DNA of 64,000 nt from Chrysomallon squamiferum (Eukaryota > Animalia > Mollusca): assembly GCA_012295275.1 (NCBI GenBank), contig CM022678.1, forward strand, positions 8,122,001 to 8,186,000. Reading direction: 5' to 3'. Made by a program: the position numbers and the translations under genes. Below, one piece after another: positions 11,201 to 17,200 of this stretch. Positions within the stretch are counted from its first letter, which is position 1. Each line of letters starts with the position of its first letter. The notes under the pieces were generated by a model. That model searched no databases. It was given only the letters and a program-made list of their open reading frames with translations, and was not told where the DNA came from.

Positions 11201-14200
11201 TAATTTTTACGTCGTTAAATGTAGACTGAGAGATAAACAAGGCTAAATAAAAATACAGACAGACAGACAGACAGATAGTCAGAGAAAGAGACAAAATAGC
11301 ACATTTGACAATAACGCTGGTTGTTTTAATAAGGTATTATATTTTTTTTTTTTTTTTTTTTGCTAATTGTTAGTTTCAGTTGGACAGACACACAGCTAGA
11401 CAGACAGACAAATATAGAGGACATATAAAAAAGGATTTACAGACAAACAAAAAGACAGGGATATAGATAGACAGACAAACATAGATATAAATATAAAGAC
11501 AGACAGACAGAGAGACAAAAAAAGAGAAACATTTAAACATTTGAAAAAGAGTGACAGACACATAGATAGAAAGAAAGACAGACAGGCAGGCAGACAGACA
11601 GACACAACAAAGGGTATTACAATGAACAATTACTTTTAAGTATATGTTATTTATTTATTTATTTGTTTATTTATTTATTTATTGTTTTGTTAGATGTTGG
11701 TTACATTTATATAAAAACTGACACACATACATACAGACAGACAGAGAGACAGAAACACAGATTGATATGACAATGGATGAAAACAGCAACAACAACAAAC
11801 TAAAAAAAAAAAAAAAAAAAAAACCAACAACACACACACACACACACACATGTATGTATGTATGTATGTATGTATGTATATATATACACATCTATCAGAT
11901 TACACTAGTAATATACCTGTATTGACATGTACCTATCAAACAACACACACACACACACACACACACACACACACACACACATGTATGTATGTATGTATGT
12001 ATGTATACACACATATATCAGATTACACTAGTAATTTACCTGTACTGACATGTACCTATCAAATGATACAAGCAGGCAGGTGAAAATATTGATTACCTGT
12101 CTTTTAACTACAGTAAGGAGAACAAATCCATTTGCAGTCAGACTTTGATTTATGTCTCTAATTAACTCAAAGTACAAACTGGAAGTAAGTAATTATAAAA
12201 AATAAAAAAATAAAATAATTATAAAAACAAAAAATAATAATTATAAAAAAAGATAATAATTATAAATAGAAAATCGATGGGTTCAGAGTAAAATGTTTAC
12301 TTAGTTTGGATACTTGATAAAGATATGTACACAGAAATATGTACATACAGATAAACACACAGACAGAAACACATACACACATTCATACATACATAAATAT
12401 TCTACAAACATACACATATATACACAGACATACATATATACACACATATATATATATACATGTAGATAGAGATACACAAACATATATACATATACATATA
12501 TGTATACACATAAAAACATATACACTACACAAACATATACATACTTTACACATGCATACAGACATGTAAATTTTACACACACACACACACACACACACAC
12601 ACACACACACACACACACACAAGCTTTATTTCAAATACCACATCTGTGTTTTTATAATTTCCTCAGTTTACCATCACAAACCAAAAAAACAGTTAATCAA
12701 GACTTCATTCACCTATATAATCCTCTCAAATCTGAATCTTACCTTTGTGTTGTAATTTACCTGTTAACTGAAAACAATCAAACTAACTGAATACAGGTAA
12801 TGTGAATCTGTTTTACCACTCTGTGGCTAACTATTCCAGCAAAATGACTTTGCTACAACAGTGAGCTTCAAAATGACAATCTTTTACTCAGATCTTCATG
12901 TGGACAATATAGCACATATCTCATTTATTAATAAACACATATACTGAGCACTTTCTGGAACAGGATAGTAACGCAAATGCTTCACTGATGAGAACTGATC
13001 GCTTATTACAGATCAGACTTATTACACTAACCACTGAACCGTCCCCTACCCCCACATGCACCCCACCCCCATCCTACTCTGTTTCTGTGTCAGATTTCTG
13101 TATGAGGATTACAGTGGATTAGAGATCAATGATTTAGAACATCAGACTGTTCTAATTATTATTTCTCTGCCTGCTGTTGTAATTGAGTTGTTAACAACAA
13201 ATTAATGAGGCATAAACTCAGTTGTGTTATCTCGGAGATAAGGTGCACAGAATGTCTTACACATTCAAACAAGAATTTGTAATGAATATCAATAAATAAC
13301 TAAATTTCTACTTTAAGAATTAATTAATTTATAGAAATTCACAGAATTCCATATACTTTTAAGGAAAAAAAAAAAAATGTGTATATATATGAACAACAAA
13401 TAAATTAGTAATTTTTAACCATTAAAAGTTTAATATTTTATAATATACAAAACAAATTCATTACTAACAAAATAATAATTCTAACTGTTTATAAGTTCTG
13501 TATTTTATTATGGTACATAGAATATTTTAAAATTTAAAAGTTTTAACCCTTTCCAAGTTCAGTAAATTATAATGGTACACAGAATACCTTATGCTTTCAA
13601 TTATTATTATTATTATTATTATTATTATTATTAATAAAATCTTGATAAATTAAGAAATTTAACACTAAGTTCAATAAATTATGATACACAGAATACCTTA
13701 TGCTTTCAATTATTATTATTATTATTATTATTAATGAAATCTTGATAAATTAAGAAATTTAACACTAAGTTTTTATTATTTTCAATTATTATTATTTTAA
13801 TTTTATTATTATTATTTTAAAGAATTCTTAATAAATTAACAGTTTTAACGTTTAAACTCCCGTGTGTTACAACAGATGATAAAAAAAAAAAAAAAAAAAT
13901 GTTTTAAAATAAAATTTAAAACATTTTCTGTTTTACTTCGAAACTTCAAGATGCAGCACGACCATCTTGCCTTCCGATACGAGATACTCACAATCCTGGG
14001 CCTCGGATCATTCGGCCAGGTTGTCATGGCAATTGATCACCTGACTCAAAGAGCTGTCGCAATTAAAATTATACGAAACAAGAAAAGGTATCCAGGCATG
14101 CGAGGTCGTTTGTCTTGTAGAAAGAAAAAGCACGTCTCGGATTAATTATTATCTGTTTTGTAGAGTTCATTTTCTATCAGCCAGCTTCAGTAGTTTGCTT

Positions 14201-17200
14201 TTAGACTAGCAGCATGGAGTTATGGGGATTGTGGTCTTCAAAGAAATGCCATTGAATGTTGTGTGTTGACGTTTTAACGCGAAAACATAAAGGAAATGAA
14301 TTTGAAAAAATAAAATGATTTTATACGCAAAATAGCTGATATAATAATAAAGTAGCAATTTGGGTCCTGAGAAAAAAAAAAAATTCTCACACATATACAC
14401 ACACACACACACACAATCATTATACGCACAAGCACTCTAATTATACACAGACATAAATTCACTTGACACACACATTAAACCACACAAAACCATATATATT
14501 CAACCACAGACACACACACAAAAACTCACAGACTCTATGAAACAAAAATTTAATATTTTAATATGATAATAAATATTTAGAAGTTGCAACAAGCAAAAAA
14601 AAAAAAAAAAAAAAAAAAAAAAAAAAAAAAAAAAATAAATAAATAAAACCCCAAACGAACCAGAAGAATTAGAAAAAAATATTCCTTACTTTGCTTATTC
14701 GTTAAAATAAACTATTATGTCCTTTCTTGACAAATATATTAATTCATTTTATTTCCATATATATATATTTTTTTTTAACGTACGTATGTGTATATTATGC
14801 ATGTAGTTTTATTGAAAATATCTAAAATTCACAGGAGCAAAGCTTGTCATTAGTTTTGTTTATTTTTTTATTTATCCTTGGCCATTTCCGTTAAGTTCCA
14901 TAACTCTTACGCTTTGCAGCTTTGTAGATTTAGAATTGCCTCCCTTGTTTCCCTTAGGTTCTGCATGATCAGTTTGTTTATCGATATGAGATGTTGGAAG
15001 TTCTAGGCAAAGGCTCCTTTGGACAAGTGGTCAAAGTTTATGACCACAAAACTGACCAGATGGTGGCCATCAAAATGATTAGAAATAAGAAAAGGTATTG
15101 CATGATTTTTTTTTTTTTTTTTATGTAAAAATGTAGTTTTTATTTTATTGATATTTGATTTTGCATTTTGTTTATGAATGTTAATATTCTTTTTTTCTGT
15201 TTTAATAATAATAATAATAATAATTATTATTATTATAACAATAAATTATTATTATTATTATAACAATAAATTATTATTATTATTATATTATTATTATTAT
15301 TATTATTATTATTATTATTATTATTATTATTATTATTATTTGTATTGATATTATTATTATTTTTCAATGTTGCCATAGATTTCCTGTAATAATTTTAGTT
15401 TTGTTTTGCTTGAAAAATTAATTTGGGACTCAGTGTCGTCTATTATTTATTCAATGTGCCTAACGTTTTATGGTCTTGGTTCCTAGCTATAGTAAATGTG
15501 TTTGTCTGTCTGTCTGTCTGTCTGTCTGTCTGTCAGTCTGTCTGTCTCTTTCTGTTTCATTTTCTCCATGCATCTTTGCTGTTTATGTCTGTCCCCATCT
15601 TTCCATATGTCTCTGTGTCTTTCAGTCTATTTTTCTTATTCACCTCTCTGTTGCTCTGTTAAAAGGTTTTAGGGTACATCTCTCTCTCTCTCTCTCTCTC
15701 TCTCTCTCTCTCTCTTTTCTCTCTCTCTCTCTCTCTCTCTCTCTCTCCTTTTTTTTAAATTTTGTTTTATTATTTCTTTCTGTTTCATTACACACACATC
15801 TCTGTGACAACAGTATACACAGATGTATTTTAATATGTGTTTAGATTTCATCATCAAGCTTTGGTCGAAGTGAAGATCCTCGATGCTCTACGAAGAAAGG
15901 ACAAAGATAACCAATACAACATCATTCACATGTTGGAGTATTTCTACTTCAGAAACCATCTATGTATAACATTTGAACTCATGGGGTAAGTTTGCTACTT
16001 CAGAAACCATCTCTGTTTCACATTCAAACTCATGAGGACAAATTTTCTTAACATTTTATTTGTAGATTTCCTTACAACCTTCTTTTTAGATTTTCTTAGT
16101 TTCTGGAGTATGTTACCATGAAGTAATCTATATTTTATTTCAGTTTTATTTCTATATTTTTAATTATTTAGTTATATATATATATATATATATATTTTAT
16201 ATTTATTTTATGCTACTGTTTTATTTCTAGTTTATAATATCATTATATATATATATATATATATTTTCTTACTTATTTTTATATTTTATTACCCTATTGC
16301 ACTCAGTCTTTATAAACATATTTAAAAAAAAAATAATAATAATAATAATTTGACTGTTTTCAATTGTTTCAGGATGAACCTGTATGAGCTAATTAAGAAA
16401 AATAACTTCCAGGGTTTCAGTATTGCCTTGATACGAAGGTTCGCGTTCTCACTTCTGCAGTGTCTGAAAGTTTTGCACCGGGAAAGGATCATTCACTGTG
16501 ACTTGAAACCAGTAAGTTTGTTTTCTCCACTCTGATACACTATGGTGATTGTTTTGTTATTATTTATCCAGCTTTTTTTTTTTTTTTTTTTGATAAAGAA
16601 CCTTATTAAGCATGGGTGGGGTTATAAGACGGTGTTAATGAGGGACAGAAAAAAAAAAAAAAAAAAAAAAAAAAAAATAATAAAATAATAATAATAATAA
16701 TAATAATAATAATAATAATAATAAAAATAATAATAACTAAATAATAGTAATAATAATAATAATAATAATAATAACTAATAATAATAATAATAACAGTAAT
16801 AATAATGATGATAATAATAATAATAATAAATGATAAAAACACACTTTAATTTCATACTGAACGTATATGAAATATTAACTATTATAGATAACAGTTATGA
16901 TAATAAACAAAACAATCATTTGGATATACTCAGAAACATATTTAGGTTAATTTGTTCATACCATCACAGATATATTTAAACAAACAAACAGACAGACAGA
17001 CAAACAAACAAGCAACCACAACAACAACAACAACAATTGGTGAACATAAAATAAACACAAAAGTGTATTCAGACACTATTAATGGGACAGTTTTTATGGA
17101 AATAGATATATTTAAACATTTTATTACACTTTATTATTATAAAAGTTTGGTGAACATGAACCAGTAATAAAATAAAATGTACCAAAATATTTTTATTGTA

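What the first reader, a model, noticed from the sequence alone, without database searches (positions are those of the whole stretch)
13951..15094. Tandem mutually exclusive exons swap the ATP-binding N-lobe (Gly loop to VAIK) of a DYRK4-like kinase
Seen: two homologous exons about 1 kb apart, both 137 nt, phase 0 to 2, ending AAG|gtat, free of stops and indels. Including both, or neither, shifts the frame. A reads [45 protein letters not shown] and B reads [45 protein letters not shown]. Codons differ at many silent positions while HD, RYE, GxGSFGQVV, DH, VAIK and IRNKK are kept. A retains the family HDHLA motif and B retains GKGSFG, so neither is simply a decayed copy of the other. Established: this segment forms the roof of the ATP pocket and lies next to the DH box. 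Inference: an old splice switch makes two kinases that differ at GKG/GLG and VVK/VVM, which could change nucleotide handling, autoactivation or inhibitor sensitivity. I do not know of such a switch in DYRK genes but cannot check the literature.
Basis: partly seen in the sequence, partly recalled or inferred. Interest (0 to 1): 0.88.

Follow-up and report, generated by a model that had tools for sequence, protein, structure and literature searches.

The report
Swappable activation exon in mollusc DYRK4
A mollusc kinase gene (DYRK4-like) carries two side-by-side copies of one exon, and abalone, oyster and scallop gene records swap the same segment, so one gene likely makes two kinases that differ in a part predicted to help the enzyme switch itself on; splicing of the first copy was not seen in this animal's own RNA.

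Summary
In detail: two intact 137-nt homologous exons (A 13951-14087, B 14958-15094) lie in a DYRK4-like gene closest to Haliotis; either alone keeps the frame, both or neither break it. The pair is not peculiar to this genome: nine other mollusc species (four Haliotis, three oysters, a scallop, an ark clam) show both versions at the same boundaries, and six RefSeq isoform pairs differ only inside this exon. Conserved A/B differences cluster around NAPA2 and the beta2-beta3 hairpin; most ATP-site positions are identical. In this animal's RNA contigs B is spliced in 4 of 4 runs; A is covered in 2 of 4, without a junction, running past its donor. One origin for all A copies is neither shown nor rejected. 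Verdict: a real, probably old, tandem-duplicated mutually exclusive exon pair, a new member of a known kind (FYN is the closest precedent); no paper on it found; current use of A here is unproven.

The parts
13951..14087 (+). Exon A, upstream copy of the duplicated exon (NAPA2, beta1, glycine loop, beta2, beta3 with the catalytic lysine); second possible acceptor at 13957
   Evidence: NAPA2 mapping; covered but not seen spliced in RNA contigs X1, X2
14958..15094 (+). Exon B, downstream copy; the slowly evolving, spliced form
   Evidence: joined to the upstream exon in 4 of 4 RNA runs
14088..14957 (+). 870-nt intron between the copies; read-through of A adds 19 residues and stops near 14143; AATAAA at 14309, 14346, 14568 and an A-tract at 14595-14648
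   Evidence: RNA contigs run from A into it to 14367 (X2) and 14538 (X1)
11026..11189 (+). Constitutive upstream exon (NAPA1 region and DH box)
   Evidence: its 3' end is the loose end joined to B
15845..15985 (+). Constitutive downstream exon (alphaC to hinge)
8157..8279 (+). N-terminal coding exon of the same gene
   Evidence: tblastn with Haliotis and scallop proteins, open frame when joined
9808..10045 (+). N-terminal coding exon of the same gene
16373..16511 (+). Kinase exon (to the catalytic loop)
17666..17747 (+). Kinase exon (DFG)
18865..19098 (+). Kinase exon (YTY activation loop)
20133..20262 (+). Kinase exon (CMGC insert)
20899..21077 (+). End of kinase domain
21429..21548 (+). C-terminal tail exon
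22161..22791 (+). Last coding exon, with a roughly 10-residue repeat expansion and the stop codon

Best explanation
Exons A and B are two intact tandem copies of one DYRK4-like exon that related molluscs' gene records use one-or-the-other, so this gene likely makes a common B kinase and a minor A kinase predicted to differ in NAPA2 and the surface of the N-lobe rather than in the floor of the ATP site. Shown: the anatomy, the frame logic, B splicing here, the A/B swap in RefSeq models of relatives, an upstream-A junction in an oyster RNA-derived sequence, and the position of NAPA2 inside the exon. Inferred: that A is still included as a cassette in this species; that transcripts with both or neither copy are cleared by nonsense-mediated decay because they shift the frame; and that the swap tunes folding and activation-loop autophosphorylation (NAPA2 packing against NAPA1 and beta4) or partner docking at the beta2-beta3 hairpin. 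In this lineage A has drifted further and lost three lysines and two glutamates, which may add an effect at the rim of the ATP site.
For: Anatomy and frames. Six of seven equal-length RefSeq isoform pairs that I picked differ only inside this exon (four Haliotis, 14 residues each; Ostrea 16; Saccostrea 14; the seventh, a Magallana pair, differs at the N-terminus). Argopecten, Crassostrea virginica and Tegillarca also show both versions, Tegillarca in the order A then B. The Logan sequence P0402 joins upstream exon, A and then B out of frame (35 of 35 positions compatible, shuffles 5.7 on average, maximum 15): A's acceptor and donor are used, and double inclusion ends in a stop. Purifying selection on this A: 0 of 11 private changes in 19 near-invariant columns. 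NAPA2: His144 and Tyr147 of DYRK2 form its core (PMC3677093, section 8) and map to exon positions 5 and 8 through Ser159; a NAPA2 point change abolished tyrosine autophosphorylation in trypanosome DYRK2 (PMC3250476, passages). Position 8 is F in 7 of 9 A and Y in 6 of 7 B; position 5 is Q in all 4 oyster A and in this B, against H in 218 of 222 peptides; position 35 is E/D in 8 of 9 A and M in 7 of 7 B; position 28 is Y in 6 of 7 B and in 0 of 9 A. Of ten docking-contact positions listed for DYRK1A in this segment (PMC11359399, passages), eight are identical between this A and B.
Against: This A lacks the A signatures G3 and E35 and has the longest branch of the exon tree (0.68 against 0.12 for its B). 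A single origin is not shown: AU tests reject neither an A clade (p 0.21) nor a private duplication in this lineage (p 0.20). RefSeq isoforms are automatic models whose read support I could not see. F at position 8 is common in ordinary single-copy DYRKs (33 of 222) and Haliotis B has it too, so the NAPA2 effect may be small. Only B was seen among listed members for Mytilus, Mizuhopecten, Pecten, Mya, Mercenaria, Patella, Aplysia, Pomacea and Littorina (lists are partial). No functional test exists.
Confidence: 0.65

Rival explanations
1. The pair was an ancestral switch, but in this lineage A is rarely or no longer included and is drifting; the RNA over A is unspliced precursor, likely primed at the A-tract near 14595.
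For: No A junction in 4 runs; cover runs from A towards the A-tract; weaker-looking AAG acceptor; four residues seen in none of 222 peptides (T14, L18, M26, L31) and loss of E35; long branch.
Against: No stop, indel or lost splice site; all 19 near-invariant columns kept despite 11 private changes; cover begins within 8 nt of A's start in both runs that hold it and is absent just upstream of B; four shallow runs of one study cannot exclude tissue-specific use.
Confidence: 0.17
2. In this lineage A has become an alternative last exon: upstream exons plus A read through the donor, stop after 19 more residues and end at a poly(A) site in the intron, giving a kinase-less N-terminal fragment that would carry NAPA1, the DH box and NAPA2 and could act in trans.
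For: Both A-covering contigs pass the donor unspliced; the read-through frame ends in a basic tail and AATAAA signals follow at 14309, 14346 and 14568; isolated class II DYRK N-termini rescue autophosphorylation in trans (PMC3250476, passages).
Against: No upstream-A junction seen; beta3 and the catalytic lysine are fully kept, which a fragment should not need; the genomic A-tract explains the 3' cover without a true poly(A) site; relatives use A as a cassette.
Confidence: 0.1
3. One reading: the switch exists to alter nucleotide or inhibitor handling through GKG to GLG and VVK to VVM.
For: Both lysines (DYRK1A Lys167, Lys175) appear among docking contacts (PMC11359399); Haliotis A also has a hydrophobic residue at position 26.
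Against: All 8 other A copies keep K/R at 18 and 7 of 8 at 26; eight of ten listed contact positions are identical in A and B. At most this is a late addition in gastropods.
Confidence: 0.08

Closest known systems
FYN exon pair (FynB/FynT), human tandem duplicated exon substitution (PMC9741552, passages)
   Same: Mutually exclusive tandem copies covering a regulatory linker plus the start of the kinase domain with the ATP site; tissue-specific use; paralogues kept one copy each.
   Different: Src-family tyrosine kinase of chordates; the swapped piece is the SH2-kinase linker to beta2. Here a CMGC kinase of molluscs; the piece is NAPA2 to beta3 with the catalytic lysine; tissue pattern untested.
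MAPK14 and CAMK2D duplicated exons in Ser/Thr kinase domains (supplementary tables of PMC9741552 and PMC8373072, rows seen)
   Same: Internal homologous exon substitution inside a kinase domain.
   Different: The CAMK2D exon shown covers the helix before the catalytic loop, not the N-lobe sheet; no DYRK entry in either table (0 hits).
Class II DYRKs: human DYRK2 (PDB 3k2l and others, E 1e-158 to the Haliotis A isoform), DYRK4, Drosophila Dyrk2/smi35A
   Same: DH box, NAPA1/NAPA2, YTY loop and kinase core. Human DYRK4 has splice variants that differ in localisation and activity (title of Papadopoulos 2011 in the reference list of PMC10952393; paper not held).
   Different: No duplicated exon at this place was seen outside molluscs: listed isoforms of a brachiopod, two nemerteans, echinoderms, Ciona, corals and a fly each carried one version (partial lists), and 0 of 80 metagenome loci held two copies.

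Membership tests
Tandem-duplicated mutually exclusive exons | Adjacent homologous exons in one gene | tested here: met
   27 of 45 residues identical, E about 1e-15, 870 nt apart
Tandem-duplicated mutually exclusive exons | Same length and phase; each alone keeps the frame | tested here: met
   137 nt, phase 0 to 2; both or neither give stops
Tandem-duplicated mutually exclusive exons | Isoforms identical except for the homologous region, in relatives | tested here: met
   6 of 7 picked RefSeq pairs differ only within the exon; automatic models
Tandem-duplicated mutually exclusive exons | Both copies spliced into mRNA in this species | tested here: inconclusive
   B joined upstream in 4 of 4 runs; A covered in 2 of 4 with no junction and read through its donor
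Tandem-duplicated mutually exclusive exons | Copies not included together in productive mRNA | tested here: inconclusive
   Double inclusion exists in an oyster RNA-derived sequence but ends in a stop (P0402); no A-to-B joint in this species
Tandem-duplicated mutually exclusive exons | Tissue- or stage-specific use; peptide evidence for both | not testable with these tools
   Only contigs of one study were available
Class II DYRK (DYRK4 group) | DH box and NAPA2 before the kinase domain | tested here: met
   DH box in 11026-11189; NAPA2 at exon positions 4-8 by alignment to DYRK2; B has Gln for His144
Class II DYRK (DYRK4 group) | YTY activation loop, DFG, catalytic loop and beta3 lysine intact | tested here: met
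   Open 772-residue frame over 12 exons with B
Class II DYRK (DYRK4 group) | Groups with DYRK4 rather than DYRK2/3 | tested here: inconclusive
   87% identical to Haliotis DYRK4-like, sister to it at 89/92, inside molluscs at 97/91; the tree held no DYRK2/3 rows, so the label rests on source names and on shared intron positions
Class II DYRK (DYRK4 group) | Tyrosine autophosphorylation and Ser/Thr kinase activity | not testable with these tools
   Needs expression and assay
Exclusion by competing RNA pairing (Dscam docking/selector type; recalled) | Conserved complementary intronic elements around the copies | tested here: inconclusive
   The 25 longest of 493 inverted pairs are microsatellite or A/T-tract pairings; no orthologous introns to compare
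Exclusion by steric hindrance (very short intron; recalled) | Intron between copies too short for both splice sites | tested here: not met
   870 nt; branch point not mapped; oyster A does splice to B

The most novel reading that the evidence does not exclude
A splice switch as old as the gastropod-bivalve split sets how readily a DYRK can activate itself: it swaps NAPA2, the cis element for the one-off activation-loop tyrosine autophosphorylation, together with the N-lobe strands it sits on. Cephalopods would have fixed the A form (all 16 cephalopod-type proteins seen with the exon carry G3 and E35) while most other molluscs rely on B, and this lineage has pushed A further into a charge-stripped variant or a kinase-less trans-acting fragment.
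Probability: 0.25. Interest if true: 0.72.

Novelty: new member of a known kind. Interest (0 to 1): 0.5.

Why it matters
Tandem duplicated exon swaps are rare, old and usually functional (abstract of PMC9741552). None is listed for a DYRK in the two human catalogues searched, and no paper on a mollusc DYRK4 pair was found. The pair offers natural variants of NAPA2, including His144 to Gln and Tyr147 to Phe, on an otherwise identical kinase, a clean way to test how class II DYRKs fold and autophosphorylate. It also gives a marker for exon retention and loss across molluscs. The splicing mechanism itself is of a known kind, and the swap is already implicit in automatic RefSeq isoform lists.

Tried and rejected
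No whole genome was held. A direct RNA test across upstream exon, A, B and downstream exon, with an intron control and run X5, was not obtained, so the A junctions and the nature of the RNA over A stay open. Metagenome scan with the A alignment: best 80 of 474 loci, mostly intron-less or non-mollusc by peptide, 0 of 80 with two copies; 13 of 80 show both intron positions by eye, so the exon unit is older than the duplication; no mollusc locus was recognised, so this says nothing on molluscs. Profile search with the A alignment returned mainly arthropod proteins; the other two-hit proteins were a barnacle model that repeats the upstream exon as well (P0212) and an amphipod model (P0404), not this event. 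The first placement tree used wrong exon limits and was discarded; one search replaces it. The exon tree has 45 columns and 2 starred branches of 36; four AU tests rejected nothing (p 0.15-0.41). Inverted repeats gave only simple-sequence pairings. A single-sequence fold of the open frame over A was uninformative (pLDDT 59.5, pTM 0.29, all helix). NG86 dS between A and B is saturated. 'A is a first exon with its own ATG' was rejected as the general role: Met in 3 of 9 A copies and upstream joins in relatives. Earlier scan notes held nothing on this locus. Papadopoulos 2011 was not held; supplements of PMC3677093 and PMC3250476 (alignment figures) were not opened.
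Full report
1. Observation. Exon A (13951-14087) and exon B (14958-15094) are both 137 nt, bounded by AG and GT, phase 0 to 2, without stops or indels. They share 83 of 137 nt and 27 of 45 residues; 18 of the 27 shared residues use different codons and 31 of 54 differences are at third positions. 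Each finds the other at E about 1e-15 and there is no third copy in the window. Either copy alone keeps the frame from the exon ending at 11189 to the exon starting at 15845; both or neither lead to early stops.

2. The gene. Twelve exons from 8157 to 22791, taking B, give one open frame of 772 residues with DH box, DFG, catalytic loop and YTY loop. With the duplicated exon left out, it is 87% identical to the Haliotis DYRK4-like protein over 410 columns and sister to it (89/92) inside molluscs (97/91). It is therefore most likely a gastropod DYRK4-type class II DYRK; the tree held no DYRK2/3 rows, so the subfamily label rests on source names.

3. Relatives use the same swap. The top hit of exon A was a Tegillarca gene model with two copies in tandem, A-like then B-like. 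Cluster listings then gave isoform pairs: of seven equal-length RefSeq pairs that I picked, six differ only inside this exon (four Haliotis assemblies, 14 residues each; Ostrea edulis 16; Saccostrea cucullata 14); the seventh differs at the N-terminus. Argopecten irradians and Crassostrea virginica also have both versions at the same boundaries. That makes nine other species with both; Pinctada showed only A. Only B was seen among the listed members for mussels, other scallops, heterodont clams, limpets, Aplysia, Elysia, Pomacea, Littorina and Batillaria; these lists are partial (15 members shown of up to 63), so absence is not shown. RefSeq isoforms are automatic models and I could not see their read support. 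One RNA-derived Logan frame from an oyster cluster (P0402) joins upstream exon, A and then B out of frame (35 of 35 positions compatible with shifted B, shuffled mean 5.7, maximum 15). This shows both splice sites of A in use and shows that double inclusion happens and ends in a stop, which fits clearance by nonsense-mediated decay (inference). The 870-nt intron rules out simple steric exclusion, and inverted repeats around the exons are only simple-sequence pairings.

4. RNA of this species. Five runs were found, four RNA runs of one study and one of unknown kind; the four RNA runs were laid on 13830-15200. B is joined to the upstream exon in 4 of 4. A is covered in 2 of 4, at about 0.3 of B's contig depth, by contigs that start at 13957 and 13959 with no upstream letters and run unspliced through A's donor to 14367 and 14538. 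No junction of A was seen on either side. Contigs drop rare forms, so this is not proof of absence, but it is a result against current cassette use here. The cover could be precursor RNA primed at the A-tract at 14595-14648 or an alternative last exon: read-through adds 19 residues and a stop, with AATAAA at 14309, 14346 and 14568. A wider test with an intron control was not obtained.

5. Selection and history. Across the seven taxa compared with both copies, B copies are 41.6 of 45 identical on average (37-45) and A copies 31.1 (26-42). This A has 11 residues seen in no other A, none in the 19 near-invariant columns (P 0.0008; 0.003 without the five columns fixed by my search motif), so most of its change happened under selection. 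It is also the longest branch (0.68; its B 0.12), carries T14, L18, M26 and L31, each found in 0 of 222 distinct peptides, and lacks G3 and E35 typical of other A copies. The exon tree separates all A from all B (94/91), with B among the single copies of other lophotrochozoans, but 45 columns cannot settle origin: AU tests reject neither one A clade (p 0.21), A plus cephalopods (0.41), nor a private duplication here (0.20). The same exon, the same order and shared residues (A7, F8, non-Tyr 28) make one old event the simplest reading; the gastropod-bivalve split is Cambrian (recalled).

6. What the swap changes. Through Ser159 of the glycine loop (PMC3677093, section 7) and the alignment to solved DYRK2, exon positions 5 and 8 are DYRK2 His144 and Tyr147, named as the core of the five-residue NAPA2 region around which NAPA1 folds (section 8). 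NAPA2 is needed in cis for activation-loop autophosphorylation, and a single NAPA2 change abolished it in trypanosome DYRK2 (PMC3250476, passages). So the exon swaps NAPA2 along with beta1 to beta3. The recurring A/B contrasts fall in two clusters: positions 3, 7 and 8 (and 5 in oysters), and 27, 28, 32 and 35 in the beta2-beta3 hairpin. The conserved purpose is therefore more likely maturation, autoactivation or partner docking than nucleotide handling. This is inference; F at position 8 also occurs in 33 of 222 peptides and in Haliotis B, so the effect may be modest.

7. Comparison with what is known. It works like FYN's duplicated exon pair, which spans a regulatory linker and the ATP-binding start of the kinase domain (PMC9741552, passages). 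It meets the anatomical tests for a tandem-duplicated mutually exclusive pair; inclusion of both copies is met in relatives' models and inconclusive here. DYRK has 0 hits in the supplementary tables of PMC9741552 and PMC8373072. Full-text searches for DYRK4 or DYRK with mutually exclusive exons or splicing, with mollusc or oyster, found nothing on this pair (listings only; most subscription papers are not held). For human DYRK4 splice variants I saw only a title. An earlier, unchecked scan note describes a similar duplicated exon in octopus Ras; it is a parallel, not support.

8. Verdict. A real and probably old duplicated-exon switch in mollusc DYRK4, new member of a known kind, apparently undescribed though implicit in RefSeq. 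Interest 0.5.

Noticed in passing
window 14970-14972 (exon B, position 5): The spliced copy B has Gln where DYRK2 has the NAPA2 core His144 (His in 218 of 222 peptides); the only other Gln cases are oyster A copies. Here A keeps His and B keeps Tyr147, so each copy holds one of the two core residues.
   Followed up: partly
window 13957-13959: Both RNA contigs over A begin here without upstream letters, one exactly after the second CAG acceptor; unexplained.
   Followed up: partly
window 3-1811 and 1718-4861 (+): Two long Ser-rich open frames in different frames upstream of the kinase gene, no Pfam match, no match to the long N-termini of Haliotis, Argopecten or Tegillarca isoforms; likely a large alternative first exon with an intron or frameshift near 1718-1811.
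   Followed up: partly
window 22161-22791 (+): The last exon carries an in-frame expansion of roughly 10- and 7-residue repeats (Asn-Pro-Ala/Ser-His core) not matched by the Haliotis or scallop proteins.
   Followed up: no
window 33620-36240 (-): Small spliced gene on the minus strand with a two-CxxC zinc-ribbon-like exon at 35217-35360; resembles Drosophila pinocchio by recall only; Pfam gave only a weak Nop10p hit (E 0.054).
   Followed up: partly
window 40330-62120 (+): Cluster of C2H2 zinc-finger arrays, two long and open (45124-45996, 49030-49662) and several broken into short frames.
   Followed up: no
proteins P0247, P0248, P0379, P0251 and the P0258 cluster: Cephalopod DYRK4-like proteins show only an A-like version (G3, E35); a tree test neither shows nor rejects grouping with A (p 0.41).
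   Followed up: partly
proteins P0401, P0403: Two further oyster RNA-derived frames stop a few residues after the upstream exon, i.e. other non-productive outcomes at the same junction.
   Followed up: no
proteins P0001 and P0221: Tegillarca has two gene models of this kinase on one contig, one with both exon copies fused through intron sequence and one with A only.
   Followed up: no
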